Shown piece after piece: positions 5,346 through 54,760 of a stretch of DNA of 64,000 nucleotides. Position 1 is the first letter of the stretch; every line of letters begins with the position of its first letter. The position numbers were made by a program, and so were the translations under genes. The notes below the pieces were generated by a model that saw only the letters and a program-made list of their open reading frames with translations, was not told the origin of the DNA and did no database searches. The stretch is from an uncultured virus (IMG/VR IMGVR_UViG_3300036770_002685) (Duplodnaviria > Heunggongvirae > Uroviricota > Caudoviricetes). The stretch lies in IMG/VR virus record IMGVR_UViG_3300036770_002685; one strand, 5' to 3'.

Positions 5346-5626
5346 CAAGGGGCAGAGTTGGCAAAAAGGGAATGAACGGGGCTTTCGGTGGAACTCTATA
5401 GACATTTTCCAGCCACAATTTTTTTTGATTTTTTTTTTCACCAAAAATGACGTAATTGACGTAATACCGTAAGAACGTAGTGTTTATGCGGGTGTCACAT
5501 CACTGTTGTTATAGAGGTAACTGTATAGGTGTAAGCGTATATAGGAAATTTACGGGGTGCGCGCGCGGAAGAAATTTTTTGTTTTTTTTTTTTTTTTGGC
5601 TGGAAAATATATATAGGAGAGGCTTG

Positions 5627-7899: not shown

Positions 7900-7942
7900 T
7901 TTCCGGGCGGGCATTCCGCCCGCTTTATACAGGGAGAAAAAA
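7873..7942 (+). promoter_or_regulatory. Early promoter/leader, copy 3
   Basis: TTGAAT-N16-TATAAT, TTCCGGGCGGGCA hairpin, TATACAGGGAGA. Confidence 0.8.
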
Positions 7943-8119
7943 ATGCGTGATTCTGAATTAGTCCCGGTAGTAAATCCGGAAAAACTCGGCGCGGAGATTG
8001 CCCACTTTTGCAAGTGGGACGGCCAAGCGATAACAGAAGCTTTTCTCGCGGCGCTCACGGACGCGAATTTTCACGCGTTCGCGGCGAAGGTTTCGGCATT
8101 GTGGGAGGGCGAAAAATGA
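7943..8119 (+). CDS. Hypothetical early protein (58 aa, not in the ORF track)
   Basis: MRDSELVP...WEGEK after the leader; ATGA overlap with 8116. Confidence 0.7.
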   Translation: MRDSELVPVVNPEKLGAEIAHFCKWDGQAITEAFLAALTDANFHAFAAKVSALWEGEK

Positions 8120-8397: not shown

Positions 8398-8476
8398 AAT
8401 TCTGATTTTTTGTCTTATACTTTCCGGGCGGGCATAGTCCCGCTCATTTCAATCGATTCAATACAGGGAGAATCAA
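8394..8476 (+). promoter_or_regulatory. Early promoter/leader, copy 4
   Basis: TTGAAA-N16-TATACT, TTCCGGGCGGGCA..CCCGC, ATACAGGGAGA. Confidence 0.8.
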
Positions 8477-12020: not shown

Positions 12021-15000
12021 ATGGACCGTGATCAGTTGAACGCGTTTATTGCGCGGGATGATGAGCCAGACATGTATGAGGGCTATGCCATGGGCGGTCC
12101 GGTGGGTGAGGACATGGTATCGGACATGCAGCCGGAAGTGAGTTATTTTGCAGAAGGTGGTGAGGTGGATCAGCCACCTGAGAAAGGTTTGTTTAGCCAG
12201 CAGCGTCCGGTGATGCCGCAGGGACGAGCCCCGTTGAAGAGGACGGCGGCGGAGATGTTGCAGCGGATGCCGCAGCAGCAATTAGGGACGATGCGTTTTT
12301 CGCCGTTGACGATGCCGGGGATTGTTGGGCGTCAGGTCCCGCGATTCGCGGACGGTGGTGAGGTGGACTCGGAGCAGCGCGGGTTGATGGCGCAACGGAT
12401 GGACATGGGCGCGCCAGCGGAGAATCTGTTTGGTGCGAACTTGGCGATGCCGTCACTGCCGCCTGCTGCGTCGTTTGAGACGAACGTGCCGACATTCACG
12501 CCAACCTATACACCGCCCACGGGCCCGGTGACAACACCCGGTACGGCGGGAGGTTTGAGTCAGTATCCGGGGTTGGGCGATGGCACGGACTTGCAGTATC
12601 AGCAGAGTTTGTATGAGCAGTTGTCGCCAGCGGCGTTAGCTGCGCCTGCGACGACGTTTACTACAGCAACGGGTTACACGCCCACGGCACAGACGGCGAC
12701 AACGCCGACACTTTTGTCGAGAGAGCAGGCGATGTTGCAGCAGCCGACCTTAGTGCGGTATGAGCCGGAGGCGAAGTTCGCGGGGTTGACCACGTACAAG
12801 GGTCCGTTGCAAACGAGTCCTTATACGGGCGGCACGACGGATGAAACGGGAGTCGTGAAGCCCTTACCGTTGACCACGGACCGTTATGCCTTGTTGGGCT
12901 TTAGGCCACCGACGAATGCGGTGGAAGGGGCGGGTCAGTATTGGTTCAATCCGGCGATGGGCTATGTGTATGCGCCTGCGGGGTATGAGCCGGAGGAGGG
13001 GTCGGGTTGGACGCGCGCTGATGAGCAGGGTGCGGCGCAGCCGGGCACCATTGACTGGACGGACACGAACTTCTTTGCCACGGGTAATTATGCATCGCCC
13101 ACGGAGCAGCCACGCGCGCAGGATTTGACGGACGTGTTCCGGTTGATCGCGGGCAGTGATGTGTCGCAAGCGGCAGCGAATCTGTTTAAGAATCCGAGTT
13201 ATGGCTGGGTGCCTGATCCGACGAACCCGGAGGGTGGCACGTTTAACATGACGCCGGAGGCGGTGAACAACATCCGATCGTCGGACCCGTTCAAGTCGGC
13301 AACCTCGCAGACGCTGAGGAGTTTGTATAGCGAGTTGGGGATGACGCCATCGGAGGAGGACGTCAACGCTTTGACGCAGGCGATTTCGTCGGGTCAGACG
13401 GACATCTTCCGTGTCGCCAATACCATCACTTCGCCCTTGCGCATGTCGGGACAGTTGCAATTAACGCCGGATCGCCCGACGTTGACGAGCATTTATGTCA
13501 ACAGTGGTTTGACGATTCCGGGTTTCTTGAACAAAGCACAGATTGACTCGGCGTATCAGCAGGCGTTGGGACGCAAAGCCGATAACGCGGGCTTGCTGTA
13601 CTACGCGTCTAACCCGACTGTGGCAGGGGCGTTTAAGAGCCCGGCGGACTTGGCAGCGGCGCTTGCAACGTCGCGTGAAGCGCAGGTTCAGGCGGCGTAC
13701 CAGCAGGCCTTTGGCCGTCGCGCGGATGCGGCGGGATTGGCGTACTACACGTCGGGTGGGGGCAAGAACGTTGATCTGGCTCCGGCGCTTGCGCAGTCAC
13801 GTGAAGCACAGGTGCGCCAAGCCTATAGCGACGTTTTGGGTCGCGCTGCAGACACAGCAGGTTTGCAGTACTACACCTCGGGCGCGGGGGCAAACGTTCC
13901 CATTGCACAGTTGAGGTCAGAGTTCACGGGCGGTGAGCGACCGCCTGCGGCCCGTGCGATGGGCTCACCCCCTGAGGGCGAGTATGCGGACCCGGTGATG
14001 CAGCTACTGGCGAGGCAGCGTATGCGACAAGGACCGGGGGCCATGGACCAAGGGTCAGCGAGGGACCGCCTAAAAAAGTTCTTGGGGGGTGAAGACCTCA
14101 CCCCCGTGCGTATGGCGGAGGGTGGCGAGGCAACGAAGGACACAGAGGCGACTGCGCGTGAGTTGTATGCCAAGATTGGGAGAACGGGCGACGCGGTTGA
14201 CGAAAAGGGGTTGAGATATTGGCGAAGCCGTATCCAAGGTAATCAGCAGTCGCCGGAGGACTTGCAGAAGGAGTTCATGGCGGCGGCAGACATTGCCGAT
14301 GATCCGTACTTTGAAGTTAATCGACTGTATCAGCGCGTTGGGCAAACGCCGGACACGGAAGGGTTTAACTACTGGGTAGATCGTGCAAAGCGAGAGAAAC
14401 TATCGCAGCAGAAGTTAGGCGAGCAGTTTATTGGTGGCCTGCCTGCGATCACCGCAGCACAACAGCGTCCGGGCTTTGGCTTAGGTGGTCAGTATGGCAC
14501 CTACAATGGTTTGCCGATGCTGTATGCGCCGGAGGTAGATCGGGTGTTGAGTGGGCGGCAGCGGGTTGAGGGCGATGTCGTCAATCTGGATAACGCGATC
14601 GGCTGGGACCCCGCGTCGATATCGGGTGAGATAGCGCGTGGTGCGGCGTCAACGGGCGTGTATCGCACACCGGTGGGCCCGGCGAATCGGCAGCAGTACG
14701 TGGGCGATCTCGCGGGCGTGGCAAGGCAGTATGGGCTAGACCCGGCACAGTACACGACGACTTCGACGAATCAATACGGTATGCAGTCAAGCGTGTTGAA
14801 CGAGGACGCGTTGTACAACGCGTTGGACGAGAAGTTGAAGGATTACTATGCGGTGCAGGGCTATGTCCCGCCCGCAGGCACAGAGAATTCTGCGTTTAAT
14901 CGTCAGGACATTGGGGGTGACCATGCGCGGGTGATGTATCAGCGTGTGGGAGATCGGTTAGTGCCGATCGAGGAGTCGTTGCAGTATTCGAACATGCAAC

Positions 15001-17549
15001 GTGCGCCGAAGTATAGTTGGACGGACTATCTTGCGCCTGCTGCGATTCTTGCAGCGCCGTTTGCGCTGCCGTATCTTGCGCCGTATTTTACGGCTGCTGG
15101 TGTGGCAAAGGGCGCGGCCATCGGTGCGGGCAAGAACCTAATTCAGGGCAAAGACCCACTCAAAGGTGGCGTGGAAGGTGCGCTAACGAGCTTCATACCG
15201 TCGCCGTTTGCTAAGGGTGGGTTGGTCAAACGCGCCGCAGGCTCCCCCGAGTACGGCGAGATCGCCATCGGCGAAGGCGGGATCACGAAGGACACCATGA
15301 GGGGCTTGAAGTCCAAGAAGGGTGTGGACACGTTCATGACGGATTCGGCGCGGATGCTGCGCAATGTCATGGGTGAGGGTGTATCGAATTTGGAGTCCGC
15401 AGTACGCGGTTCAGTAGCCGCGATCCCCGGATCAGTGGGGGACATCGAGTCGATCTTCCGCGAGAGCGACAAGACGAGGAAGTTCGCGACGACGGAAGAG
15501 GTCTTGCGGGATTACATGCCCAAGCGCATGACTACGCCGACGAAGGAAGGTAAGGGCTTTGAAGAGGTAGGCACTTACCTGCCGTTGCCTGTTCCAGCGG
15601 GCACGATCAGTAAGACGGCTAAAGGTGTGAAGACTGGCGCGCGCCGTGCCTTTGAAGAACTGGGTCCGGTAGCAGCAGGGATGGTTGAAAAGACCGCAGC
15701 AAGGACAGGCGCAGGCCCGATGTATGCGGTCAAGCCCAAGGGTGGGACGTTCTATCCCCCTGAGATGGGTTCTGGTTTGGATACCTACATAGACAGACTG
15801 GTCAAAGGACTATCCCAATCGGAGACTTTGGCAGGTCGGGATGCTAAATCCGTAGCGGACTTTATTCGAACCAAAGGACGTAAGTATTTTACTTCGACAT
15901 TTGGTACGGCGGACGATCCCTTGCGTCTAGCCGTGTCTGAAGGCCGTATGCCGCTGTACGGTTCGGATGACGAACGCTTTAGGGACTACTTGTTGGACGC
16001 TGCGCGCGCGGGCAACCCAAAGGCAGTTAAAGACCTTGAACGTGTTTATGATGAGGCCACACAGCTAGGAGTACAGCTTTATTCTCCAGCGGGCGCGACA
16101 GAGCCCACATACACTTTGGCAAATCGCATAAATGCAGCGCAACGTGCAAAATTGCTTGAGCAAGGGGTGCCAGAGGATTTAATAAACCCAAACTATCCAG
16201 CAGTGAACACTGCCCAGCAGATGGCTGAAACCACTTATGCGGAGGCTAGAAACAAGCTGGGGAAATTATTGAAGGGGATGGAGGAGCTCCCTCCGGAAGC
16301 AAGAGAAGCTTACATGCGCGGGACAGGCAAGGATTTTCAACCCCTGTTATACGCGGCCACCAAGGAAGAGCCTATCTACGACGTCACGCATACGCCGAGC
16401 ATGGACTTTTTAAACCCGCGTAATCTATCAGAAGCAATTGCATCGATTCCTGTAAGTGACCTTGAGCGCATGACGTTCCCTGAGGCAGTGGTCAAGGGAT
16501 CGCAAAACATGCGTATCAAGCGGGATCGTGGGTTGGTCTTGGAAAAGGCAAGGGACGGTAAAACGGTTCCCAAAGAAATTTATTTTGATGGAACCAAGCC
16601 CGTCTATGAGATAGACAAAAATCAGCAGTGGGTGCGTGTCCTGTCGCCTGACGCGGTGGAGTTAGAGGGAGCAGCGATGCGACATTCAATTGGTGGTTAC
16701 AAGACCAGTGATAGCTACAACTTAGGCGGCAGGGATGCGTTTAACTCGGGTCTTGCACGGGTCTTCTCGTTGCGTAACCAGAAGGGTATTCCACAGGTAA
16801 CGGTGGAAGCGAAGTTTACGGACAAAGACGGTTTGTTTATTAAAGAGATTCGATCTAAGTTTAATAGCGAGCCAACGCAAGAAGAGAAAAACGCCGTGTT
16901 CCAGTTGTTTGACACACTGGGCCCAGAAAAGATAGGCTCGACTAAGTACGTAACCAACCGTTCAGGGAATAGCCTGAAAGAAGAAGACCAAGTGACGGTT
17001 AACTGGGGCGACTTGTACAACCAGTACAAGAGCTACAAAGAAGGCACTCAGGGCTTTGCAGGTGGCGGCATCGTTCGAAAGGCAGCACAGGCCTTGACAA
17101 AGATGGGCGCGAAAGAGTCGCAGGTCGCTGGTAAAAAGTTGACTACGCTACAGGACATGCACACTTCGTTAGGCGACAGCGTCCGTGCTCGTGCTGCACA
17201 GATGAAGCAACAAATGGACGAGATGGAGTTTAAGTACAAGCCGGGTCAACGCGTCTTTACTGAGGATTCTGCAAAGAAGAATAAACCGCCTTACCTGATC
17301 AAGTCCAAGCGTCTGTACGGTGACATGATTGTGCGTGATCCTAAGACCTTGAAAGCCATTCGTGATCCGGAAACAGGTAAAGCGCAAAGAACGCCGTATG
17401 AGCCGGGTTACTTAATTCGTGAAGAAAACGGACCGGATGACTGGGCGGAGTATGTTCTGCCTGAGTCCGCGATCAAAGGTTCGGTAGACGAGTTTGCCAA
17501 GGGCGGCAGAGTGGACAAAAAAGCTCCCGGTAAGCGTAAATATATTTAA
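12021..17549 (+). CDS. Giant multidomain (polyvalent-type) protein with DUF4214-like repeats and a PcfJ-like domain
   Basis: 1842 aa; repeats of AYQxxxGRxADxAGLxYY; EGAAMRHSIGGY...VFSLR...PQVTVE; recurring FAxGG. Confidence 0.7.
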   Translation: MDRDQLNAFIARDDEPDMYEGYAMGGPVGEDMVSDMQPEVSYFAEGGEVDQPPEKGLFSQQRPVMPQGRAPLKRTAAEMLQRMPQQQLGTMRFSPLTMPGIVGRQVPRFADGGEVDSEQRGLMAQRMDMGAPAENLFGANLAMPSLPPAASFETNVPTFTPTYTPPTGPVTTPGTAGGLSQYPGLGDGTDLQYQQSLYEQLSPAALAAPATTFTTATGYTPTAQTATTPTLLSREQAMLQQPTLVRYEPEAKFAGLTTYKGPLQTSPYTGGTTDETGVVKPLPLTTDRYALLGFRPPTNAVEGAGQYWFNPAMGYVYAPAGYEPEEGSGWTRADEQGAAQPGTIDWTDTNFFATGNYASPTEQPRAQDLTDVFRLIAGSDVSQAAANLFKNPSYGWVPDPTNPEGGTFNMTPEAVNNIRSSDPFKSATSQTLRSLYSELGMTPSEEDVNALTQAISSGQTDIFRVANTITSPLRMSGQLQLTPDRPTLTSIYVNSGLTIPGFLNKAQIDSAYQQALGRKADNAGLLYYASNPTVAGAFKSPADLAAALATSREAQVQAAYQQAFGRRADAAGLAYYTSGGGKNVDLAPALAQSREAQVRQAYSDVLGRAADTAGLQYYTSGAGANVPIAQLRSEFTGGERPPAARAMGSPPEGEYADPVMQLLARQRMRQGPGAMDQGSARDRLKKFLGGEDLTPVRMAEGGEATKDTEATARELYAKIGRTGDAVDEKGLRYWRSRIQGNQQSPEDLQKEFMAAADIADDPYFEVNRLYQRVGQTPDTEGFNYWVDRAKREKLSQQKLGEQFIGGLPAITAAQQRPGFGLGGQYGTYNGLPMLYAPEVDRVLSGRQRVEGDVVNLDNAIGWDPASISGEIARGAASTGVYRTPVGPANRQQYVGDLAGVARQYGLDPAQYTTTSTNQYGMQSSVLNEDALYNALDEKLKDYYAVQGYVPPAGTENSAFNRQDIGGDHARVMYQRVGDRLVPIEESLQYSNMQRAPKYSWTDYLAPAAILAAPFALPYLAPYFTAAGVAKGAAIGAGKNLIQGKDPLKGGVEGALTSFIPSPFAKGGLVKRAAGSPEYGEIAIGEGGITKDTMRGLKSKKGVDTFMTDSARMLRNVMGEGVSNLESAVRGSVAAIPGSVGDIESIFRESDKTRKFATTEEVLRDYMPKRMTTPTKEGKGFEEVGTYLPLPVPAGTISKTAKGVKTGARRAFEELGPVAAGMVEKTAARTGAGPMYAVKPKGGTFYPPEMGSGLDTYIDRLVKGLSQSETLAGRDAKSVADFIRTKGRKYFTSTFGTADDPLRLAVSEGRMPLYGSDDERFRDYLLDAARAGNPKAVKDLERVYDEATQLGVQLYSPAGATEPTYTLANRINAAQRAKLLEQGVPEDLINPNYPAVNTAQQMAETTYAEARNKLGKLLKGMEELPPEAREAYMRGTGKDFQPLLYAATKEEPIYDVTHTPSMDFLNPRNLSEAIASIPVSDLERMTFPEAVVKGSQNMRIKRDRGLVLEKARDGKTVPKEIYFDGTKPVYEIDKNQQWVRVLSPDAVELEGAAMRHSIGGYKTSDSYNLGGRDAFNSGLARVFSLRNQKGIPQVTVEAKFTDKDGLFIKEIRSKFNSEPTQEEKNAVFQLFDTLGPEKIGSTKYVTNRSGNSLKEEDQVTVNWGDLYNQYKSYKEGTQGFAGGGIVRKAAQALTKMGAKESQVAGKKLTTLQDMHTSLGDSVRARAAQMKQQMDEMEFKYKPGQRVFTEDSAKKNKPPYLIKSKRLYGDMIVRDPKTLKAIRDPETGKAQRTPYEPGYLIREENGPDDWAEYVLPESAIKGSVDEFAKGGRVDKKAPGKRKYI

Positions 17550-22989: not shown

Positions 22990-23898
22990 ATGGCGATTAC
23001 ACGCGCACAACTTGTAAAAGAACTTGAGCCGGGTCTAAACGCCCTGTTCGGTCTTGAGTACAAGAACTACGAACAAGAGCACACACAAATCTACGACATT
23101 GAGTCGTCAGATCGTGCATTTGAAGAGGAAGTCATGCTGTCCGGCTTCGGTGAGGCTCCGGTCAAAACCGAAGGCGCTGGCTTGGCTTACGACACCGCGC
23201 AGGAAGTCTTTACTGCTCGCTACACCCACGAGACGATCGCTCTGGCGTTCTCTCTGACGGAAGAAGCGGTTGAAGATAACCTGTACGACCGTCTGGCTCG
23301 TCGTTACACAATGGCTCTGGCTCGTTCCATGGCTACCACCAAGCAGATCAAGGCTGCTTCTGTCCTGAACGGTGCTTTCACCACCTCTATCGGTGGCGAC
23401 GGCGTCGCGCTTTGCTCGACAGATCACCCGATCATTGGCGGTCCTAACCAGAAAAACGAACTGGCAACTCCTGCTGACCTTTCCGAGACTTCTCTGGAAC
23501 AGGCCATCATCGATATCCAGTCGCTGGTTGATGAACGCAACCTGAAGATCGCGATTCAGGGTCTGAAGCTGATCATCCCGAAAGAGCTTCAGTTCACCGC
23601 AGATCGCATCATGAAGTCCACCCTGCGTGTTGGCACTGCCGACAACGATATCAATGCCATCAAGAACATGGGCATGATTCCGCAGGGCTACACTGTCAAC
23701 CACTACCTGACCGATCCGGACGCTTGGTTCATCAAGACCGACGCCCCGAACGGCATGAAGATGTTTGAACGTGTAACCATGAAGACCGCCTTTGAAGGTG
23801 ATTTCGAGACTGGCAACATGCGCTACAAGGCGCGTGAGCGTTACAGCTTCGGCTTCTCTGACTGGCGCGGTATCTTCGGCTCGCCCGGCGCGGCCTAA
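22990..23898 (+). CDS. Major capsid protein (Mu gpT-like, HK97 fold)
   Basis: LEPGLNALFG, SDRAFEEE, YLTDPDAWF and YKARERYSFG motifs; followed by a terminator. Confidence 0.9.
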   Translation: MAITRAQLVKELEPGLNALFGLEYKNYEQEHTQIYDIESSDRAFEEEVMLSGFGEAPVKTEGAGLAYDTAQEVFTARYTHETIALAFSLTEEAVEDNLYDRLARRYTMALARSMATTKQIKAASVLNGAFTTSIGGDGVALCSTDHPIIGGPNQKNELATPADLSETSLEQAIIDIQSLVDERNLKIAIQGLKLIIPKELQFTADRIMKSTLRVGTADNDINAIKNMGMIPQGYTVNHYLTDPDAWFIKTDAPNGMKMFERVTMKTAFEGDFETGNMRYKARERYSFGFSDWRGIFGSPGAA

Positions 23899-23900
23899 GA

Positions 23901-23933
23901 GAAAAAGGGGAGCTTCGGCTCCCCTTTTCTTTT
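23901..23933 (+). terminator. Terminator after the capsid gene (possibly bidirectional)
   Basis: AAAAA-GGGGAGC-TTCG-GCTCCCC-TTTTCTTTT. Confidence 0.9.
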
Positions 23934-23959
23934 ACAGCCAGTCGTGTATATTGGCATTA

Positions 23960-24040
23960 TTCCGGGGTTATCCGGCATATCTGACAGTCCCGGCTGACGA
24001 CATGCAGACAGATATGCCACAAATCTCGCATGTGAGGATA
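23960..24040 (+). ncRNA. Structured RNA downstream of the capsid gene, candidate Mu-gpT-DE-like motif
   Basis: 10-bp stem 23974-83/24009-18 plus two possible pseudoknot pairings; family suggested by location only. Confidence 0.55.
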
Positions 24041-24045
24041 TCAAA

Positions 24046-45392: not shown

Positions 45393-45725
45393 ATGGCAAA
45401 CAAGTACTTTAGGAAGTATTCGATCCCGAGTGCAACGACGGAAACGACGCTGTATACGGTGCCGGATGCCAATACGGCGGTCGTGTCGTCCTTACGAATT
45501 ACTAATGGCAATGCAAGCAATGCCACGGTTACCGTCTCTGTGTATGCACTGGGCGAAGCAACGGAATACTTTGTTTTAAAGGGCTACAGCCTGCCGACAA
45601 ATGCCACGATGGACGTTTTCTCAGGGGTGCCGCTCGTATTGGAAGCCACAGATGTGCTCAAAATTGAATCGTCCGTAGCGACAGTTCATTTCTATTTGAG
45701 CTATCTTGAGATGGACAGAAACTAA
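45393..45725 (+). CDS. Probable virion protein
   Basis: TTLYTVP...LVLEATDVLKI. Confidence 0.65.
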   Translation: MANKYFRKYSIPSATTETTLYTVPDANTAVVSSLRITNGNASNATVTVSVYALGEATEYFVLKGYSLPTNATMDVFSGVPLVLEATDVLKIESSVATVHFYLSYLEMDRN

Positions 45726-45744
45726 TGAATTACCACATAATTAC

Positions 45745-45811
45745 TGGCAATTTCGCGTCCTTTCCCGGCGCGCGACCCCGCCTGAGGGTCTATTGCCAAT
45801 CTGGAAAGGAC
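45745..45811 (+). ncRNA. Candidate cis-regulatory RNA that sequesters an RBS
   Basis: TGGCAAT/ATTGCCA outer stem, two inner hairpins; GTCCTTTCC complementary to GGAAAGGAC. Confidence 0.55.
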
Positions 45812-45815
45812 TATC

Positions 45816-47858
45816 ATGGCTGAAGCGATGCAGGGAGGCGTTATGAGCCTGCCGCCGGAGATGGGCGGTATGGCGCAACCCCCTCAGAGTTACCTCACTC
45901 CTGAAGACGAAGCAACGCTAACGCAACTGCGTAATTCCGTCTCGCCCCAAGAGTTCAATCAAGAGATGTTCAACGCTGCGGAGCAGATGGACCCGCAGGC
46001 GATTGCACAACTGCGCAGCATGCTACAGGGCATGCGCTTGCCGCAGGAATTGATCGACTTGATGAAGGAGATGGTGAGTTCACTTTTGCAGGAACCTGCC
46101 AAGTATGCGGAAAATCGTCAGCAGTTGATCGCAGAGGGGGTGCCAGAAGACCTCTTGCCGCCAGAGTTTGACCCTAATTACCTGATGGCGCTGGACATGG
46201 CGCTGGATCAGGTATCAGAGCCTGTTATCCAAGGATTTGCAGCCGGTGGTTTTGTCCAAAATCCGATCTCTGCCGGGATTGCCAGCTTGGGCCGCAACGG
46301 CGACACGATGCTGGCGCACATCACGCCGCGCGAGGCGAGGATGCTTCAGCGCGCAGGTGGCGCAGGCACGATCAACCCGGTTACTGGATTGCCTGAGTTC
46401 TTTCTTGGCGGTCTTGCCAAAGCAATTGGCGGGGCATTTAGGTCAGTCGGCAAAGCGGTTTCAGGCGTTCTCACAGGCATCGGTAAAGCAGTTAAGAGCT
46501 TTGCCAGCAGTACTGTCGGTCGGATGGTGACATCGGTCGCGCTGGGCTTCTTCTTAGGCCCCGCAGCGGCGGGTCTACTAGGTGTTACGTCTGCCGCAGG
46601 CGTTGCGGCAATTAGCGGCTTTATTGGTGGTGCAGGCTCGACCTTACTTGCCGGTGGCAGCATTAAAGACGCCTTGAAGACGGGTGCGATTGGCGGTCTG
46701 ACCGCTGGTGCGTTTTCCGGTGTTAGCGGCGGCGCAGGGGCCTTCAAAGCGGGCACTTACACAGGTCCTACGACCATCTCGGAGTCTTGGAAAGGCTTCA
46801 CTGAGAAGTTGGGGACTAGACCGGCGGCGGACGCGGCAAAAGCGGTTGCTGGCGGGGTGGACGAAGCGGCAGCAGCCGCACCTCCTCCGCCTGCCATTGA
46901 ATCGGCTGTACAGAGCTTGGATGAACTGAAGCTTGACGCAATCAGTGGTAGGACTGCAGCGGTTCCTCAGCCGTCAATTCAAGTAACTTCACCAACGGGA
47001 CAAGCGGTTGCTGGTCCTGCCGTGGGGCCGTCTAAGTTTGACGTGATTTCACGCGGTTCGCCTCCGGCTGTTTCGCCTGCGCCTCCTGCACCTGCACCCG
47101 CACCAACTAATTACCTGATGAATCCGCCACTGGGGGCGGTCAAGCCTGATCCGCTCGTACAAAAGTTGACTGCCAATCTTCCGGCAGATACGGCTTCGAC
47201 CTCCGGCGGCGTGATGGACCTCTTGAAGCAGGGTGAGATACGGCAAGCGGCAACGAAGGCAGGCGAAGGTATTAAAGGGCTTTATGATGAGTATTTATCG
47301 CCCAGCAACATAGAAAAAGCAGGTGCGGAAAAGGCGATGACCGAGGCCACGAAAGCGGTCAACGCACTGCCTGCAGGCACTTCTGAAGCGGTCAAAGGCG
47401 CAGTCTTTAACAAGGTTTATGAATCGAATCTACCCGGCATGTTGGCGACCTACGGTCCGCTGGCAGCAGCCGGTATCGGCGCAACCTATTTGGCAGGGGG
47501 CTTTGATGTCAAACCCCCGCCAAAGCCCGAGATTCCAGTCAGCGGCACTGAACTGTACAAGCGCAATCCATACCTTTTGACACCGCAAATTCGCACGATC
47601 TCGGCCTCCACCGGCCAGCCTTATCGCATGGCGGCAGGGGGTATTGCGAGCTTGGCGCAGGGTTCAACGAAATACCCACGCAAGACCGGACCGATCGACG
47701 GCCCCGGCACAGGCACGTCGGATTCCATCCCGGCGATGCTCTCTGACGGCGAATTCGTGTTCACCGCCAAAGCAGTCCGGGGCATGGGCAAAGGCTCACG
47801 GCGCAAGGGCGCAAAACGGATGTATGCCTTAATGAAGGCACTGGAAAAGAGGGCCTAA
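45816..47858 (+). CDS. Probable internal virion/ejection protein
   Basis: Gly/Ala-rich hydrophobic segment; FAAGG, GRNGDTMLAH, GPGTGTSDSIPAMLSDGEFV. Confidence 0.7.
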   Translation: MAEAMQGGVMSLPPEMGGMAQPPQSYLTPEDEATLTQLRNSVSPQEFNQEMFNAAEQMDPQAIAQLRSMLQGMRLPQELIDLMKEMVSSLLQEPAKYAENRQQLIAEGVPEDLLPPEFDPNYLMALDMALDQVSEPVIQGFAAGGFVQNPISAGIASLGRNGDTMLAHITPREARMLQRAGGAGTINPVTGLPEFFLGGLAKAIGGAFRSVGKAVSGVLTGIGKAVKSFASSTVGRMVTSVALGFFLGPAAAGLLGVTSAAGVAAISGFIGGAGSTLLAGGSIKDALKTGAIGGLTAGAFSGVSGGAGAFKAGTYTGPTTISESWKGFTEKLGTRPAADAAKAVAGGVDEAAAAAPPPPAIESAVQSLDELKLDAISGRTAAVPQPSIQVTSPTGQAVAGPAVGPSKFDVISRGSPPAVSPAPPAPAPAPTNYLMNPPLGAVKPDPLVQKLTANLPADTASTSGGVMDLLKQGEIRQAATKAGEGIKGLYDEYLSPSNIEKAGAEKAMTEATKAVNALPAGTSEAVKGAVFNKVYESNLPGMLATYGPLAAAGIGATYLAGGFDVKPPPKPEIPVSGTELYKRNPYLLTPQIRTISASTGQPYRMAAGGIASLAQGSTKYPRKTGPIDGPGTGTSDSIPAMLSDGEFVFTAKAVRGMGKGSRRKGAKRMYALMKALEKRA

Positions 47859-47861: not shown

Positions 47862-49094
47862 ATGGCAACTGAATATAGCGTACAGACAATCCAAGAAGCG
47901 CCGGAGATTGAGAAGGCGCGATTAGCGCTGGTCAAAACCGGTGAAGAACTCGTCGCAAAACCCTTCACCATCCCCGGCTACGAAGTTGCCGGGCTTGGGG
48001 CAGGCCAGATTCAAGCTGCACGGCTCGCGGAACAGGGCGTAGGGGCTTACGCGCCTTACCTGACCGAGGCCAGCAAAGGGCTGACGGCAGGGCAAACCTT
48101 GACGCAAGAAGCGGCGCGCGGCATCGGTGCCTTGAATGTCCAACCGCAGATGCAAGCCGCCTACGGTGCCTATCAAGCAGGCGCTGGCGTGGCAGGCGAC
48201 ATCGGCAGATTGGCTGAGACAGCCGGTCAGGGCCTACCTACAGCAGCGTATGGTGCGGCGATGATTCCGGGCGCGACAACCGCGTACCAACCCGGACAGG
48301 CCACCGCGTACATGAATCCGTACCAGCAGCAGGTCACAGCCAACGCGCTACAAGAGATGCAACGCCAAGCCGACATTGCCATGCAAGGTCAGGCGGCACA
48401 GGCTGTTCGTGCGGGCGCGTTTGGCGGTACTCGCGAGGGTGTGCAACGCGCAGAGACGGCCCGTAATCTGATGGACGTGATGGGCCAGCGCATCTTGCAA
48501 GACTATTCGCAGAATTATCTGCAAGCGCAGCAGGCCGCACAGCAGGCGTTTGAAGCGCAACAGCAGCGCCAACTTGCAGGCGGTCAGGCGTTGGGTCAGA
48601 TGAGCCTTCTGCCCTCCCAAATCGCCTCACAACAGGCCAATATCTTGGGTGGTCAGGCCAACATTTACGGTCAGCTTGCCCAAGGCATCGGTCAACTGGG
48701 CCTACAGCAGGGCCAGTTTGGCTTGCAACAGGGCGCGGCATTGGGCGCAGCCGGTCAGCAGTTGGGTGCGATGGCAGGACAGCAGGCACAACTGGGTGCG
48801 CTGGGCCAGCAACTCAGCCAAGCAGACATCGCACTGCTCTCGCAGGTGGGCGCACAGGAGCAGGCATTGCAGCAGGCTCGACTCGATGCGCTACGCGCAA
48901 CAAAGTTGCAGGAGGCGATGATGCCGTACCAGCAGTTGGCCTTCCAATCCGACATTTTGTCGAAGACCCCGAGCGGTCAAACCTCGATTACTGCCGCGTC
49001 GGCACCTACGCCAAGCCCATTGATGTCTGCATTGGGCACCGGCGTTGCTGCCCTTTCCAGCGTCGCAGGGACTAAGAAAGCAGGCTTGTTTTAG
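47862..49094 (+). CDS. Probable DNA ejection/pilot protein
   Basis: Gln/Ala/Gly-rich; YMNPYQQQV, GAFGGTR. Confidence 0.7.
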   Translation: MATEYSVQTIQEAPEIEKARLALVKTGEELVAKPFTIPGYEVAGLGAGQIQAARLAEQGVGAYAPYLTEASKGLTAGQTLTQEAARGIGALNVQPQMQAAYGAYQAGAGVAGDIGRLAETAGQGLPTAAYGAAMIPGATTAYQPGQATAYMNPYQQQVTANALQEMQRQADIAMQGQAAQAVRAGAFGGTREGVQRAETARNLMDVMGQRILQDYSQNYLQAQQAAQQAFEAQQQRQLAGGQALGQMSLLPSQIASQQANILGGQANIYGQLAQGIGQLGLQQGQFGLQQGAALGAAGQQLGAMAGQQAQLGALGQQLSQADIALLSQVGAQEQALQQARLDALRATKLQEAMMPYQQLAFQSDILSKTPSGQTSITAASAPTPSPLMSALGTGVAALSSVAGTKKAGLF

Positions 49095-49099
49095 GAGCG

Positions 49100-51073
49100 A
49101 TGATGAAATCTAAAGTACTTGACAGGCCGATGTTCAAGAAGAAGGGGGCTCCTGTCCCGCCTGAGGAGGCCGACAACGTCGGCATCATGCAGGGCTTCAT
49201 GGACGCCATCAACGGCATGGAAGAGGATGACTACGAGGAAGAGGGCGATAGCGATATGGCAAAAATGCTGGATCGCCGTCCAGACTCGCCAGAAATCCTG
49301 ATGAACAATCTGCGGGGCGACATGCGCTCGGTAGACGCACGGGTCGAGGAACTGGCTGACTTAGTCGGCTACCGTGCCGCTGCCGAGACGCCAACCGAAG
49401 TCTTGGCACTGCTGCAGCCGGTGCTGGCACAGCAATCCCAGATGGCGGCACCCCCTCCGGGAGGCATGATGCCTGCCCCACCGATGCCGATGCCCGGCGC
49501 GCCGATGGCTGCACCTGCGGGCGGGGTTGCCGATTTAGCGGCCATGGCTCAAGGACCACAGACCACGCCACCAATGCCTGCCCCGGGACCGATGCCACCG
49601 GGCGGCGTTGCATCGTTGCCTGCTGCGGCTGAACAACAAGCGCCCATTGCAATGAAAGAGGGCGGGATTGTTCAACATTTTCAAGGAGGGTCCGGTGAGG
49701 AGGGCGTGACCCCCGTTGATCTAAGTGGGCAGCAAGCCTACTACCCTCCTGAGATCGTGGCAAAAGCGCAAGAAGATGTGATGAATCTGATGAGCGCGCA
49801 GCCTACGCCAACGCCGTCCATCGAAAGTGCGATGGCAGCGCGTCTGCCTACGTATGAGCGTCTTTTAGGCGTGGACAAGAACACTGTGCAATCGCAGATG
49901 TTGTTTGACATTGCACAAGGGGCGTTAAACGTTGCTGCCGGTGTTGACGCGGAAGGGCGCCCCATTAGAGGTGCAGTATCTCCTGTCGGGCGTATCGCGG
50001 CAGGTATGCGAAACGTGCCTGCCATGATTGGCGCACGTGCGGGTGAGCTTGCAAAAGCACAGCGTGAGATCAAGGCGCTTGCCCTACAAGCCGGTGAGAA
50101 GGACGTTGCATTGATCCGCGAGTACAACTTCAGGTTGATCGACTCGCAGCGCAAGCTGTCGGCAGACATCATCAAAGCAACTGCCAAGGGACAAGGTTTT
50201 GGCACTGGGGTAAAAGGCGCTGCGTGGAATTTTGTCACGCGGTTCGCGCCTGACTTTGCTGCGGGTAAGTTGACGCCAGAGAACGACCGTCGATTCTTGA
50301 GTTCGTATTCGATCATCTCGGAACCCACGTATTTCACTGATCCGTTTACCGGGAATGTTCAATCGCGTGTTCCGCCTATCCCCGACTTCGTAACGAATTC
50401 GATTCGAGCACGGAAGGATATTCCTGTTCCAACCACTGGCAAGAAGGCTCCTGCGCCAGAGGGAGGCACTGCAGCGCCCGTGGAACCCGGAGTACCCGGA
50501 GCGCCCGTAAGCGAAGCGCCTTCTGATGTAACGCCCGCCGTTAAACCCACTGCTGCGAAAACGCTGTGGCAATTAACGCCTGTGCTGACCGGACCTGTTG
50601 CTACGGTTAAGGACGTTATTTCAAGCGTTCCCGGACTGGGTGGCGTAGGCAAGGACGTAACGCAGGCACGTGCTCAATACATGGGCGAATTCCGTGAGCT
50701 TGTAAAGAGCTTGCAAAACAGCCCCGTTTTTGCACAACGAGAGCGTGAGGCGATTGAGACCGAATTAAACATTGAGCCTCGGTTCTTCGACGACCCAGAG
50801 AAGCTGCGTAATAAACTGATCGGTATTGACAAATACCTGACAGCACGTCTAACAGATGCGCGACTAAACGCAACAAACGAAAATCTGCCTGTCGAACAGC
50901 GAAAAGCGCATGCACAGATTGTGACCACGCTTAAAAACTTCTTACCAAAGCTGGGTATTCCGCAGAAGATTTATACGATCAAGGCGTTGCAGGACTTCAC
51001 GAGGAAAAATCCTCCGGGCACTCCCTTCTTGTGGAATGGTAGCGAAGTTCGCGTGACAAAAGGAGCGGAATAA
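49100..51073 (+). CDS. Probable internal virion protein
   Basis: VLDRPMF N-terminus; MKEGGIV; position in the ejection module. Confidence 0.65.
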   Translation: MMKSKVLDRPMFKKKGAPVPPEEADNVGIMQGFMDAINGMEEDDYEEEGDSDMAKMLDRRPDSPEILMNNLRGDMRSVDARVEELADLVGYRAAAETPTEVLALLQPVLAQQSQMAAPPPGGMMPAPPMPMPGAPMAAPAGGVADLAAMAQGPQTTPPMPAPGPMPPGGVASLPAAAEQQAPIAMKEGGIVQHFQGGSGEEGVTPVDLSGQQAYYPPEIVAKAQEDVMNLMSAQPTPTPSIESAMAARLPTYERLLGVDKNTVQSQMLFDIAQGALNVAAGVDAEGRPIRGAVSPVGRIAAGMRNVPAMIGARAGELAKAQREIKALALQAGEKDVALIREYNFRLIDSQRKLSADIIKATAKGQGFGTGVKGAAWNFVTRFAPDFAAGKLTPENDRRFLSSYSIISEPTYFTDPFTGNVQSRVPPIPDFVTNSIRARKDIPVPTTGKKAPAPEGGTAAPVEPGVPGAPVSEAPSDVTPAVKPTAAKTLWQLTPVLTGPVATVKDVISSVPGLGGVGKDVTQARAQYMGEFRELVKSLQNSPVFAQREREAIETELNIEPRFFDDPEKLRNKLIGIDKYLTARLTDARLNATNENLPVEQRKAHAQIVTTLKNFLPKLGIPQKIYTIKALQDFTRKNPPGTPFLWNGSEVRVTKGAE

Positions 51074-54000
51074 TGGCCGAAGATACCTTGAAACAGCAGT
51101 TAGAAGCACTGTCTTCTCCTGCTGGAGGGGGTCGAGCGTCTGAGTTGTTGACAGGCAAACCGCCTCCGGGTGTTGCCGTGCCAAGCACTGGCGCGGCAGA
51201 GGGTGCGATTAATCCGGTCACTGGGATGCCCGAGACAGTCGAGGCATTGTCTGAAGCAGGGGAGCCCACGGTCGGCGAGAAAGCCACCGAAGTGGGCTAC
51301 GGTCTATTAGAGGGCGTGTCGCGCACCGCGCCTTCTGTCACAGGCGGCATGGTTGGCTTTCGTGCAGGCACCGGATTAGCGCCTTTGATGGGGCCATACG
51401 CCCCTCTAGGTATCGCCGGTGCCACGGTGGCTGGCGTAGGCATAGGCGCGCTTATAGGTAATGAGTTTGACATTCGCTATCCCGGCGTAGCGCGTCAAGA
51501 CCTTGTGCCGTACCGCGAAGGCGGTAAGACGTGGGGCGATACGATTGCGTTAGCACCCATCGCGTTCAATATTCCTGTCACGCAGGCACAACGCGTTTCT
51601 GAGGCTATCCGCATACTGGAGCCCACAGCAGCAAAGTTCGGCATGGAAGGCGCAGCACGTGCTTCGCGTTTCCTGACAGATGTGACAGCGGCCATGGGCA
51701 GAACTGCTCAGGCTTACCCAAAATCTTTCCTTGCAGCAGAGGCGATCTCTGGCGCAGGTGCTGGGGTTGGTGGCGGTATGGCTGAAGCCTATGCGCCGGG
51801 GGAACCCGGCACACGTTTGGCCTCTGAGATTGTCGGCGGTGTGCTCGCCCCTTCTCGGCTGTTCATCCACATGGGTTCTGCCAAGGACCTGATGGGCAAC
51901 ATCGCGGCATCCTTTTCAAAAGACGCACGGCAGAGCCGAGCAGCCAACAAGCTACGCTCGATCCTCGAAGACGCAGGCGAGGACGTTGACAAGGTCATCC
52001 GCTCGCTTGAGGCGAACGTCCCAAGAGGTGCACAGCCAACGGCTGGGCAAAAGACGGGTGTTCGTGCGCTCAGTATCTTGGAAAATACCCTAGCGCGAGA
52101 GAACGCCAAGTATGGCGGAGAGATCGCGGACCAAGGACTAAAGACGCTACAGGCTTACACGCTGTTGGCAAAGAACCTAGAACAGGTCGGGAGCCCACAA
52201 GCACTTCGTGCTGCTGCACAGTTACGTGAAGAAGCCTTCAACGCCATGCTGGAAAACCGGCAGAGCGTTGCGCTCTTAAACGCTGCACAGAAGATTCAAC
52301 GCATTAGCAAAGACACGCCCGAGGCCCGTCAACAGATTGGCGAGATTGTGCGTCAAGCGACGCAGGATGCCTTGTCCGATGCACGGGGTCATGAGCGCAC
52401 GTTGTGGACACGTGCCGTGGCGGACTTGTCACGGCCCACGACTCAGACAGTGACTGAGCGTGTTCAGGTCGGCAAGATGGTGGATGAAGCGGGTAGACCG
52501 CTCATGCGTACCCGCGAGGTAACGCGAGTAACGTTGCCCTCAGTTGTTCCCACCAATACCGTTCGCGACTTCCTGAACGAAACGCTGACTATTGCAGATT
52601 CTGTCTATAAAGGCACCGTGCCTCCCCTCGTCAAAAAAGTGATGGGGCAGATGGGAGTGACAGAGGCGGATGTCGCTCGCTACAAATTAGGCAGGCAGAC
52701 GGAAGAGTTTGCCAATACAGGGATTGTCCCCGATCGCTTTTTGCCAAAAGGGCGCGATGTCCAACTGGGCGAACTGGTCAATATGCGCTCCAACCTTCTA
52801 GACCTTGCGCGTGATGCTGCGGTCAAAGGAGAAAACGCTGACGCGCGGTTCTTCGGCAACATTGCGAACAGCATGATGAAGGACTTGGATCAGGTCAAAT
52901 CTCCTGCGTTGGACGAAGCGCGCAGCTTTTCAAGAACGCTGAATGACTACTTCACTCGCAGCTTTGCCGGGGAGATGCTCAGTAAAAAAGGCACGGGTGC
53001 CCTTGCTTATCCACCAGAAGTGCTTGTCCAGCGGGCTTTCGGCGCGAACAACGACTTGGCTGCGATGCGGATGGCCGACATCGAAGACGCAGTAGGCATG
53101 CTTCGCAAAGAGTACACCGATGCCGTCGCACGATTTGGCAGAGATAGCGCAGAAGCGCTGTCCTTGAAGCCCTTAGCCGATCTGTCCAGTTCTCGTGTGG
53201 TATCGATTCGAGACGCACAGCAGCGTATTCTGCGTCTGGCTGCAGCAGAGACGATTGACCCGAATACGGGCCGCGTAAGCGCTACTCGCCTAAGCCGTTT
53301 CATTGAAAAGCGCAGACCGCTGCTGGACAGATTGCAGATCACGGATGATCTATCCGATGCGGTTAAAGCAGAAAACGCGTTTAAGGCAACGGCAAGTGCT
53401 AACAGCGTATTGGACAAGAGCCTGAGAAATCAGACAGCCTTTGCGCAAGTGCTAAAGCGTGAGTCGCCGTCCATGGCGATCGCGGATGCCTTGAACAGTA
53501 AGTTCCCTGTTCGCAGTCTCTCAAACATCGTCAAGCTGGCAAAAGCGGGTGGGCCGGATGCCGCAGCGGGGCTGAAGTCGAGTCTCTACGATTATGCGTT
53601 TACCAAGGCCGGAGGCGACAGGGGCTTTAACGCGCAGGCGTTCAAGGATGCGTTTTTCAGTCCCATTGCCCAAGGACAACCTTCGATTTACAACATCCTG
53701 CGCTCGCAGGGTGTGATGACCCTCTCGGAAGGCAAGAACCTCAGGCGCATCATCGATCCGATGATACGTGTCGAGCAATCGCTGGGCGATCGTCAGCTTA
53801 TGGAAGGCGTCATGCAGGGCGCAGACGCAGCAACCGAACTGGCATTGCGTGTGGTCGGCTCGCGCATTGGTACTAGTGTGTCAGGTAGTGGACCCGGATC
53901 GCTGATTGCGGCTTCAGCAGGCTCGAAGTATATGCGCCAAATCTTCGATAAGTCTCCGATGCTGTTGGTGCGAGGGATCATCGAAGAGGCCACGAAAGAC

Positions 54001-54333
54001 CCACAGATGATGGCGCTGCTCCTACGTCGCGGTCAGTCAGAAGGTGAGAAGTTGATGCTCGCGCGTCAGATGCATGCCTATCTGACCGCCGCAGGCTTGA
54101 ACTACGAACGGTTTACTGAACCCGGCCCAGAGCCCACGGTCCAAGCGCCACAGCCTGTGCGTAGTTTTGCACCACGTCGCCAACCCGCAACCGCCTCCAC
54201 ACGGGGGGTTCCGGGGTTAAATATTGGTGGCGGAGGTCCTCCTCAGTTAGGTGGTGGCGCGCCTGCGGCGGGCGGTGGATCAAGTCGCGAGATGTTGCAA
54301 CGTCTTTTCCCGTTTGACGCAACGCTACGATAG
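51073..54333 (+). CDS. Large internal virion/ejection protein
   Basis: 1086 aa, helical and Ala-rich; last large structural gene. Confidence 0.65.
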   Translation: MAEDTLKQQLEALSSPAGGGRASELLTGKPPPGVAVPSTGAAEGAINPVTGMPETVEALSEAGEPTVGEKATEVGYGLLEGVSRTAPSVTGGMVGFRAGTGLAPLMGPYAPLGIAGATVAGVGIGALIGNEFDIRYPGVARQDLVPYREGGKTWGDTIALAPIAFNIPVTQAQRVSEAIRILEPTAAKFGMEGAARASRFLTDVTAAMGRTAQAYPKSFLAAEAISGAGAGVGGGMAEAYAPGEPGTRLASEIVGGVLAPSRLFIHMGSAKDLMGNIAASFSKDARQSRAANKLRSILEDAGEDVDKVIRSLEANVPRGAQPTAGQKTGVRALSILENTLARENAKYGGEIADQGLKTLQAYTLLAKNLEQVGSPQALRAAAQLREEAFNAMLENRQSVALLNAAQKIQRISKDTPEARQQIGEIVRQATQDALSDARGHERTLWTRAVADLSRPTTQTVTERVQVGKMVDEAGRPLMRTREVTRVTLPSVVPTNTVRDFLNETLTIADSVYKGTVPPLVKKVMGQMGVTEADVARYKLGRQTEEFANTGIVPDRFLPKGRDVQLGELVNMRSNLLDLARDAAVKGENADARFFGNIANSMMKDLDQVKSPALDEARSFSRTLNDYFTRSFAGEMLSKKGTGALAYPPEVLVQRAFGANNDLAAMRMADIEDAVGMLRKEYTDAVARFGRDSAEALSLKPLADLSSSRVVSIRDAQQRILRLAAAETIDPNTGRVSATRLSRFIEKRRPLLDRLQITDDLSDAVKAENAFKATASANSVLDKSLRNQTAFAQVLKRESPSMAIADALNSKFPVRSLSNIVKLAKAGGPDAAAGLKSSLYDYAFTKAGGDRGFNAQAFKDAFFSPIAQGQPSIYNILRSQGVMTLSEGKNLRRIIDPMIRVEQSLGDRQLMEGVMQGADAATELALRVVGSRIGTSVSGSGPGSLIAASAGSKYMRQIFDKSPMLLVRGIIEEATKDPQMMALLLRRGQSEGEKLMLARQMHAYLTAAGLNYERFTEPGPEPTVQAPQPVRSFAPRRQPATASTRGVPGLNIGGGGPPQLGGGAPAAGGGSSREMLQRLFPFDATLR

Positions 54334-54341
54334 GAGTGCTC

Positions 54342-54530
54342 ATGGCAACCAAACCGACGAAGTCGAAGGTGAATCAGGCGGGCAACTACACAAAGCCCTC
54401 TTTGCGTAAGCGCCTGTTCGAACAAATCAAAGGATCAAACGTGCAGGGCACTGCAGCGGGCCAATGGTCCGCGCGCAAGGCCCAGCTTCTGGCAAAGAAA
54501 TATAAGGAAGCGGGTGGGAGCTATAAATGA
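54342..54530 (+). CDS. Small basic protein (DUF5872-like N-terminal half)
   Basis: NYTKPSLR...GQWSARKAQLLAKKYKEAGGSY. Confidence 0.7.
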   Translation: MATKPTKSKVNQAGNYTKPSLRKRLFEQIKGSNVQGTAAGQWSARKAQLLAKKYKEAGGSYK

Positions 54531-54760
54531 AAAAGCCACAGCTAAGTCTGAAGGCTTGGGGTAAACAACGTTGGAAAACCAAGAGCGGCAAACCCTCGTC
54601 GATTACCGGCGAGCGTTATCTGCCGGAGAAGGCGATCAAAGCATTGACTCCCGCAGAGTACGCAGCTACAACGAAGGCAAAGCGAGCAGGCAAGAAAGCT
54701 GGCAAGCAATTCGTCGCGCAGCCAAAACGCATTGCCGCCAAGACCGCCCGGTTTAGGTAA
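54527..54760 (+). CDS. Small basic protein (DUF5872-like C-terminal half)
   Basis: SLKAWGKQRWKTK...ERYLP...GKQFV. Confidence 0.7.
   Translation: MKKPQLSLKAWGKQRWKTKSGKPSSITGERYLPEKAIKALTPAEYAATTKAKRAGKKAGKQFVAQPKRIAAKTARFR

What the first reader, a model, noticed from the sequence alone, without database searches (positions are those of the whole stretch)
45745..45815. Multi-stem leader whose loop can pair with the RBS of the first ejection gene
Seen: outer stem TGGCAAT (45745-51)/ATTGCCA (45792-98) enclosing hairpins TCGCG/CGCGA and GACCC/GGGTC, which compete for two bases. GTCCTTTCC (45757-65) is the exact 9-nt reverse complement of GGAAAGGAC (45803-11), which holds the Shine-Dalgarno just upstream of ATG 45816. 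Inference: a translational switch, riboswitch-like or protein-bound, that limits low-copy or toxic ejection proteins. I do not recognise it as a named family.
Basis: partly seen in the sequence, partly recalled or inferred. Interest (0 to 1): 0.7.

Follow-up and report, generated by a model that had tools for sequence, protein, structure and literature searches.

The report
Phage leader RNA masks ribosome site
A widespread group of uncultured freshwater phages puts its own promoter and a small conserved folded RNA in front of the genes that probably build the DNA-injection channel, and one loop of that RNA matches the ribosome-binding site, so it probably holds production of these proteins down; no one has yet tested it.

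Summary
The sequence features are real, and the element is conserved: 128 of 136 distinct loci anchored on the upstream protein carry it, one copy per genome, no Rfam match. Covariation gives a three-way junction P1/P2/P3. The P2 loop complements GGAAAG(G) in 141 of 141 leaders that have it; its only substitutions are C-to-U wobbles. It drifts about 25-fold faster in the one clade that lost GGAAAG. No clade swaps loop and SD together, so the pairing is supported but not proven. Best reading: a default-OFF translational leader (loop-SD pseudoknot) limiting the first putative ejection protein. The releasing factor is unknown and a metabolite riboswitch is unlikely. This scan noted similar designs, but not this family, on other DNA. 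It may be among the Fremin 2023 candidates, whose alignments I could not read.

The parts
45712..45717 (+). -35 hexamer TGGACA (family consensus RTGGACA/RTAGACA)
   Evidence: found 17-18 nt before the -10 box in 79 of 81 representatives; GTGGACA about 90% or more conserved in the 23 loci where it lies outside the upstream ORF
45736..45741 (+). -10 hexamer CATAAT (SATAAT); start site predicted near 45748-45749 (inferred, not mapped)
   Evidence: A at +8 in 62 of 81 and pyrimidine at +7 in 63 of 81; note ATAAT was the anchor used to parse leaders; spacing rule recalled
45745..45751 (+). P1 5' arm (family consensus GCCA); overlaps the predicted start site
   Evidence: 75.5% paired, double changes at 4 of 4 pairs; own vs swapped duplex -5.86 vs -4.79 kcal/mol, 0 of 300 swaps as good
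45754..45772 (+). P2 hairpin CGCGUC/GGCGCG with loop CUUUCCC (45760-66)
   Evidence: 98% paired; G-C to A-U in 5 and C-G to U-A in 6 of 85 rows, all one clade; U-G/U-A alternation; G.U 55 vs A.C 1 favours + strand RNA
45757..45765 (+). anti-SD segment; core UUUCC 45761-65 lies in the P2 loop; identical to the 16S rRNA gene tail TCCTTTC
   Evidence: 16S tails of 3 proteobacterial genomes continue CCTCCTTTC
45773..45773 (+). single conserved C linking P2 and P3
   Evidence: at least 90% conserved column in alignment A2
45774..45790 (+). P3 hairpin GACCC/GGGUC, variable loop
   Evidence: double changes at 5 of 5 pairs (16, 20, 9, 3, 2 rows of 85); RNAalifold finds it unaided
45792..45798 (+). P1 3' arm (family consensus UGGC), inside a P3-to-GGAAAG linker of fixed length with an A-rich 3' part
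   Evidence: linker 13 nt in 51 of 73, 11-15 nt in all 73; composition
45803..45811 (+). GGAAAGGAC: partner of the P2 loop, holds the Shine-Dalgarno AAGGA
   Evidence: GGAAAG ends 7-8 nt before the start in 132 of 141
45393..45725 (+). upstream 110-aa ORF (phrog_1276, unknown function); its last codons hold the -35 box in 56 of 79 loci
45816..47858 (+). 680-aa controlled gene, putative first internal/ejection protein; acidic helical N-domain (about aa 28-135) co-occurs with a leader
   Evidence: no fold match in PDB, only an unnamed viral protein in BFVD
47862..54333 (+). three tightly packed downstream ORFs (410, 657, 1086 aa) of the same putative operon
   Evidence: 410-aa ORF hits phrog_4287 'DNA ejection protein' at E 1e-5; the fourth gene at this position in DSL-LC04 is annotated 'DNA transfer protein'

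Best explanation
A cis-acting translational OFF/damping leader at the head of the putative ejection-protein operon of Dishuiviridae-like freshwater podophages. Shown by comparison: a host sigma70-type promoter, then an RNA three-way junction (P1, P2, P3) whose P2 loop is complementary to the SD region 30 nt downstream. Inferred: P2 and P3 fold first during transcription; the SD then docks on the loop as an H-type pseudoknot (stem 1 = P2, loop 1 = C45760, stem 2 = UUUCC/GGAAA, loop 2 = the variable base 45766). It can extend to 7-9 bp over the whole SD by opening the top of P2. The loop copies the 16S tail, so it competes with the 30S subunit and keeps synthesis of a low-copy virion protein low, even though a host promoter can fire at any stage of infection. 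More weakly inferred: a protein that reads the invariant CGCG/CGCG stem and C linker shifts the balance (autogenous feedback by an operon product or release by a late assembly protein).
For: Conserved position and single copy. Whole structure 90.4% paired, 85 cells with double changes vs 24 in shuffles, 0 of 500, and better than all slid controls (alignment fitted to P1-P3; the unfitted alignment gives 87.3%, 54 vs 22). Loop complementary in 141 of 141 leaders with GGAAAG; the 7 substituted loops are C-to-U opposite G; loop base 7 is free and deleted once. Loop changes: 10 in 2.8 tree units in the clade that lost GGAAAG vs 4 in about 24.9 units elsewhere. Scans for loop variants returned only that clade (50 hits) or nothing. 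P3-to-GGAAAG distance fixed. Nested folding pairs loop and SD in 55-64 of 73 homologs. Lineages without the pairing often have a local hairpin over the SD (uncontrolled).
Against: No clade swaps loop and SD together: 2 double-change cells in the 9-bp helix, not above shuffles (70 of 500); none found by three targeted scans. The SD side can be conserved by ribosome pairing alone. Loss of the pairing is one evolutionary event (17 rows, one clade), and those phages keep P2 and P3. Computed cost of opening the RBS is only modestly raised (7.8 vs 6.5 kcal/mol shuffled, mean z 0.66, 23 of 35; control genes 5.0 vs 5.5). ViennaRNA cannot score the pseudoknot and gives P2 a probability above 0.5 in only 3-7 of 73. 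The co-occurring N-domain is acidic (net -14), a poor direct RNA binder. Pseudoknot geometry is argued from recalled rules.
Confidence: 0.56

Rival explanations
1. Two-transcript timing switch, as for T4 gene e: RNA from the internal promoter lacks the P1 5' arm, while read-through RNA from the late operon has it, and presence of P1 decides whether the SD is free.
For: P1 pairs use +3..+8 after the -10 box; with a 5' end at +7, P1 survives in only 6 of 73; in the window the opening cost rises from 8.3 to 9.6 kcal/mol in the short form. T4 precedent in PMC3014915.
Against: Across 71 homologs short minus long is 0.14 kcal/mol (20 up, 20 down by more than 1). The anti-SD loop is present in both forms, unlike T4 e. 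Pairs upstream of +6 are not above swapped controls (44 of 300). Start site not mapped.
Confidence: 0.12
2. The fold is a translation aid or protein landing site in the ON state: P1-P3 keep the GC-rich leader away from the RBS, and loop-SD pairing is transient or protects the 5' end.
For: With the RBS forced open, P2 forms in 57-63 of 71; P2 and P3 persist in the clade without the pairing; the linker before GGAAAG is A-rich.
Against: Does not explain why the loop is fixed only while GGAAAG is present.
Confidence: 0.11
3. Metabolite- or ion-sensing riboswitch with an SD-sequestering pseudoknot.
For: Junction plus pseudoknot with many invariant bases; H-type pseudoknots form ligand pockets in preQ1, SAM-II/V and guanidine-III riboswitches (PMC6698751).
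Confidence: 0.07
4. The 5' RNA also acts in trans, presenting a 16S-tail mimic to other phage or host mRNAs with AAAGGA-type SDs.
For: Loop equals the 16S tail; several window genes have AAAGGA-type RBS; earlier scan notes propose this for other phage RNAs (unchecked).
Against: No terminator found near the leader; a cis partner at fixed distance is always present, and loop conservation depends on it.
Confidence: 0.06
5. A DNA-level element: promoter plus palindromic operator (CGCG-N11-CGCG) for a repressor such as the CI-like HTH at 4473-4766; complementarity to the SD is incidental.
For: The invariant core lies just downstream of the predicted start; CGCG and CATG are both palindromes; an HTH protein is encoded.
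Against: G.U 55 vs A.C 1 in P2; P3 covaries with variable loop length; single copy per genome; spacing between P2 arms shortens in one clade.
Confidence: 0.06

Closest known systems
T4 RBS-sequestering leaders of genes e, soc, 49 and I-TevI (PMC3014915, passages read)
   Same: Phage late or potentially harmful gene; SD held in an RNA helix; a promoter lies over the 5' part of the structure.
   Different: Simple hairpins removed by starting at a T4 late promoter; here a three-way junction with loop-to-SD pairing, a host sigma70-type promoter, and the anti-SD strand stays in the short transcript.
T4/T2 gene 32 autoregulatory pseudoknot (PMC3014915)
   Same: Phage mRNA leader pseudoknot controlling translation initiation.
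   Different: Lies 67 nt upstream and nucleates gp32 binding over an unstructured RBS; does not pair with the SD; controls an SSB gene.
SD-sequestering pseudoknot riboswitches (preQ1, SAM-II/V, guanidine-III) and glutamine-II (PMC6698751, passages)
   Same: Loop-to-downstream pseudoknot near the RBS in a short 5' UTR.
   Different: No Rfam match; no metabolic gene context; glutamine-II has its 5' end inside the pseudoknot and no third helix, a different topology.
Candidate phage cis-RNAs: GP20-a/b (RF02991, RF03003) and the 8,495 IMG/VR candidates of Fremin et al. 2023 (PMC10690425)
   Same: Computationally found conserved structures directly upstream of phage structural genes, function untested.
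   Different: GP20-a/b do not match. Whether this motif is one of the 8,495 could not be checked: alignment and diagram files were unreadable.
Three-way-junction leaders with loop-to-RBS pairing before phage nucleases
   Same: Same design as described in the notes.
   Different: Other phages and genes; no sequence look-alike by the scan's index.

Membership tests
Any Rfam 15 family | Covariance-model score at gathering threshold | tested here: not met
   0 hits in the window; at E up to 10 only a chance mir-512 hit, 17.7 vs 94 bits
T4 e/soc/49/I-TevI-type RBS-sequestering leader | SD paired in an intramolecular helix | tested here: met
   predicted p=0.98-0.99 in the window, above 0.5 in 55-64 of 73 homologs; conservation; computational only
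T4 e/soc/49/I-TevI-type RBS-sequestering leader | Internal promoter removes the anti-SD strand, freeing the RBS | tested here: not met
   predicted start about 45748-49 lies upstream of the anti-SD segment 45757-65; no mean isoform effect
T4 e/soc/49/I-TevI-type RBS-sequestering leader | Measured repression of translation | not testable with these tools
   needs reporter or toeprint
H-type pseudoknot | Hairpin loop complementary to a downstream strand, conserved | tested here: met
   96.8% paired over 5 pairs in 85 rows; 141 of 141
H-type pseudoknot | Covariation of the second stem | tested here: inconclusive
   only wobble changes; 1 double-change cell, in the clade that lost the pairing; SD constraint limits change
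H-type pseudoknot | Both stems formed at once | not testable with these tools
   nested folding cannot score it; needs probing or structure
Metabolite riboswitch | Upstream of genes for ligand metabolism or transport, across hosts | tested here: not met
   116 of 119 viral hits before one virion gene; 2 of 120 genome hits are full motifs, both among phage genes
Metabolite riboswitch | Ligand binding | not testable with these tools
   needs in-line probing
Glutamine-II riboswitch | 5' end inside the pseudoknot helix, P1 stem-loop, linking strand, P2 | tested here: not met
   topology in PMC6698751 differs from P1/P2/P3 junction with 3' pairing
Autogenous translational operator (gene 32/43 type) | Product of the operon binds the leader | tested here: inconclusive
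   N-domain present with a leader in 130 of 130 loci, absent in 6 of 6 leaderless loci, but these are distant relatives; domain is acidic and has no RNA-binding fold match
P22-type ejection-protein operon | Genes after the gp10-like tail hub with ejection-protein homology | tested here: inconclusive
   second ORF phrog_4287 at E 1e-5, upstream virion structural protein; DSL-LC04 and Venkman annotations; first ORF has no Pfam, NCBIfam or PDB sequence match

The most novel reading that the evidence does not exclude
A true two-state phage riboregulator that times and meters assembly of the DNA-injection machinery: a 16S-tail-mimic pseudoknot locks the RBS on RNA from a host promoter, and an assembly component (free ejection protein via its leader-linked N-domain complex, or scaffold) binds the invariant junction to flip it, coupling ejection-protein synthesis to procapsid supply; or the flip is triggered by a small molecule, which would be a phage-specific riboswitch on a virion gene.
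Probability: 0.2. Interest if true: 0.8.

Novelty: new variant of a known kind. Interest (0 to 1): 0.55.

Why it matters
Ejection proteins are made in small, fixed numbers (about 12, 12 and 30 per P22 virion, PMC8402733), and my literature searches found no RNA element described for controlling them. This is a compact (about 70 nt), well-aligned motif in abundant freshwater phages that encode no RNA polymerase or sigma factor detectable here, so it suggests how such phages hold back a late structural operon under a host promoter. It comes with natural controls: one clade that lost the pairing, one with a different leader, and leaderless relatives. It can be tested in E. coli reporters without a cultured phage.

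Tried and rejected
Competing hairpins sharing two bases: rejected. Compensatory loop/SD variants: three scans found none. Host-chromosome copies: 118 of 120 genome hits lacked the full motif. Two-isoform effect: no mean effect. Antisense promoter over the conserved G-I-M codons: no conserved -35. Two small basic ORFs (54336-54530, 54527-54760) as universal regulators: found in only 3 of 5 genomes that all carry the leader. N-domain fold: no PDB match, one unnamed BFVD match at E 1e-3; Atlas hits below 0.9. RNA data: no RNA holder listed. More distant named phages (CRP-9, CRP-901, HTVC115P, 023Pt_psg01): no model hit in the fetched regions; Venkman's homologous gene overlaps the upstream gene, leaving no room for a leader. 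Counts had column offsets and are superseded. In the tree three rows (L039, L040, L048) were mislabelled by a wrong start codon; one search corrects this. Papers: no hit describing this motif in searches.

Full report
Observation. The 9-nt complement between 45757-65 and 45803-11 is unlikely by chance: 57 of 20,000 shuffles of the leader reach 9 nt, and 25 other window genes reach at most 8. The minimum-energy fold of the 71 nt pairs these two segments. Rfam 15 has no match at gathering or E up to 10, apart from a chance miRNA hit.

Setting. The window looks like a lytic podophage: DNA polymerase A, primase, helicases, terminase, portal, capsid, tail and lysis genes; no RNA polymerase, sigma factor or integrase among the 55 ORFs scanned and 44. 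The leader fills the 90-nt gap between a 110-aa ORF and a 680-aa ORF that opens four tightly packed genes. The second of these hits 'DNA ejection protein' (E 1e-5). The one named relative, DSL-LC04 (OR003939), has the same order ending in a 'DNA transfer protein' and carries the leader. Its paper (PMC10611076, passages read) describes a metagenome-assembled phage with a predicted Pseudomonadota host and proposes the family 'Dishuiviridae'. 'Ejection gene' is therefore an inference; the 680-aa protein has no Pfam, NCBIfam or PDB sequence match.

Conservation. I collected loci two ways: by the upstream protein, blind to the leader, and by the motif. Of 136 distinct protein-anchored loci with a readable downstream gene, 128 carry the motif, 2 a different leader and 6 none. 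A covariance model finds one copy in each of 5 of 5 related virus records.

TGGACA-18-CATAAT lies at 45712-41. A -35 box is found 17-18 nt before the -10 box in 79 of 81 representatives. In 23 loci it lies outside the upstream ORF and is still about 90% or more conserved while the spacer varies, which argues for a real promoter. Leaders were parsed with ATAAT as anchor, so its invariance in that set is partly built in. By the usual spacing (recalled) the start is near 45748-49; not mapped.

Structure. On the model-fitted alignment of 85 leaders: P1 75.5% paired with double changes at 4 of 4 pairs; P2 (CGCGUC/GRCGCG) 98% with double changes at 3 of 6, nearly all from one clade; P3 86.6% with double changes at 5 of 5; overall 85 double-change cells vs 24 in shuffles, 0 of 500, and better than all slid controls. 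The unfitted alignment of 79 gives the same picture (54 vs 22), and RNAalifold finds P3 unaided but not P1 or P2. G.U outnumbers A.C 55 to 1 in P2, pointing to RNA on the + strand; in P3 the count is uninformative (10 vs 9). P1 is the weakest helix: own arms pair better than swapped arms (-5.86 vs -4.79, 0 of 300; relatedness not controlled), but it would mostly vanish if the RNA starts at +7.

Loop-SD pairing. Among 158 distinct leaders, 141 have GGAAAG and all 141 have a complementary loop: 134 CUUUCC, 6 CUUUUC and 1 CUUUCU, so every substitution is C to U opposite G. The seventh loop base is C, A, U or absent. The 17 without GGAAAG all have altered or shortened loops. On a tree of 117 downstream N-domains the loss is a single clade, so this is one event, not 17. 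Inside it the loop changes 10 times in 2.8 units of tree length, outside 4 times in about 24.9. Scans built to find loop variants returned only that clade (50 hits), nothing, or no sense-strand leader with another P2 stem (69 hits). There is no true covariation. That is expected, because the loop equals the 16S gene tail TCCTTTC seen in 3 proteobacterial genomes, so the SD side cannot change freely; it also means the SD side's conservation is not evidence by itself. The P3-to-GGAAAG linker is 13 nt in 51 of 73 and 11-15 nt in all. The outer pairs of the 9-bp helix hold in most but not all rows (71 of 85 and 67 of 78).

How it most likely works. Shown: promoter-like boxes, three helices, a loop tied to the SD. 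Inferred: P2 and P3 fold before the SD is made, and the SD then docks on the loop. A 6-bp stem 1, one-base loop 1, 5-bp stem 2 and a dispensable one-base loop 2 fit ordinary H-type geometry (recalled rules). Opening the top of P2 extends the pairing over the whole SD. Either form competes with the 30S subunit. Nested folding favours the long anti-SD helix in 55-64 of 73 homologs and P2 in only 3-7; P2 returns in 57-63 of 71 when the RBS is forced open. So both states are within reach, but the program cannot score the pseudoknot. The computed cost of opening the RBS is raised only modestly (7.8 vs 6.5 shuffled, 23 of 35; controls 5.0 vs 5.5, 8 of 25). The purpose is most plausibly to cap a low-copy virion protein transcribed from a host promoter; P22 packs about 12, 12 and 30 copies of its ejection proteins (PMC8402733, passages). 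What lifts the block is open. CGCG/CGCG is invariant in 152 main-type leaders while P3 varies freely, which suggests a protein or tertiary contact. An N-terminal helical domain is present in 130 of 130 loci with a leader and 0 of 6 without, but the latter are distant relatives, the domain is acidic (net -14) and has no known fold. A two-transcript switch through P1 is attractive but had no mean effect (0.14 kcal/mol).

Comparison with what is known. It works like the T4 RBS-sequestering leaders of e, soc, 49 and I-TevI (PMC3014915, passages), but fails their defining feature that the internal promoter removes the anti-SD strand. It differs from the gene 32 pseudoknot and from glutamine-II (PMC6698751, passages). 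Paper searches (listings only) showed no description of this motif. Weinberg 2017 (PMC5737381): passages read, supplement unreadable. Fremin 2023 (PMC10690425): first fifth of the text and passages read, four supplementary files searched without a hit, alignment files unreadable; since it mined the same database, the motif may be one of its unnamed candidates. Earlier notes of this scan describe the same design before phage nucleases in other genomes (unchecked); none matches this sequence.

Verdict. A real, conserved, uncatalogued phage leader RNA with its own promoter; most likely a translational brake on the first putative ejection protein. New variant of a known kind; function untested; interest 0.55.

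Noticed in passing
L020:3345-3444 and L065:3345-3441: Same gene pair and N-domain, but a different leader: another CGCG-based stem and a local CGAAC/GUUCG hairpin over the SD. Only these 2 contigs matched a scan of viral contigs.
   Followed up: partly
L069:2545-2617, L363, L390, L396, L426, L429: Sub-clade with P2 changed to CAUGC/GCAUG and a shorter drifting loop; a local hairpin covers the SD instead (CCUAA/UUAGG, and CCUUU/AAAGG in L390), and P2 arms are complementary to the start-codon region.
   Followed up: partly
L039:2660-2700 type loci (23 of 79): An insertion of about 18 nt moved the -35 box out of the upstream ORF, and the box was kept in non-coding DNA.
   Followed up: yes
L221:2501-2560 and L261:2501-2560: Two Desulfobacterales MAGs have a CGCGUC hairpin whose loop complements the SD region of a small membrane-protein gene (TRAP-transporter-like, label recalled), with G.U-preserving differences; not a significant hit of model R1.
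   Followed up: partly
window 45816-47858 and 49100-51073: Repeated short motifs G-I/V-M and (M/F)AxGG-I/V-ASL in the putative ejection proteins; possibly capsid-targeting or cleavage signals.
   Followed up: no
window 54336-54760: Two very basic small ORFs (64 aa, K+R 14; 77 aa, K+R 22) that travel as a pair to different places in 3 of 5 related genomes.
   Followed up: partly
window 7899-7945 and 8420-8476: Repeated leader TTTCCGGGCGGGCAT...CCCGC hairpin followed by ATACAGGGAGAA before ORFs 8008 and 8477; ATACAGGGAGAA also precedes 7210, behind a strong TTGACA/TAAAAT promoter at 7140.
   Followed up: no
window 23898-24045: After the capsid gene's terminator, a structured intergenic region with inverted repeats (GGCATATCTG...CAGATATGCC) before ORF 24046.
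   Followed up: no
window 12021-17549: 1842-aa ORF between terminase and portal with no PHROGs or NCBIfam match.
   Followed up: no
window 5401-5479: Repeats of TGACGTAAT/TACCGTAA and long T and A runs before the small terminase gene.
   Followed up: no
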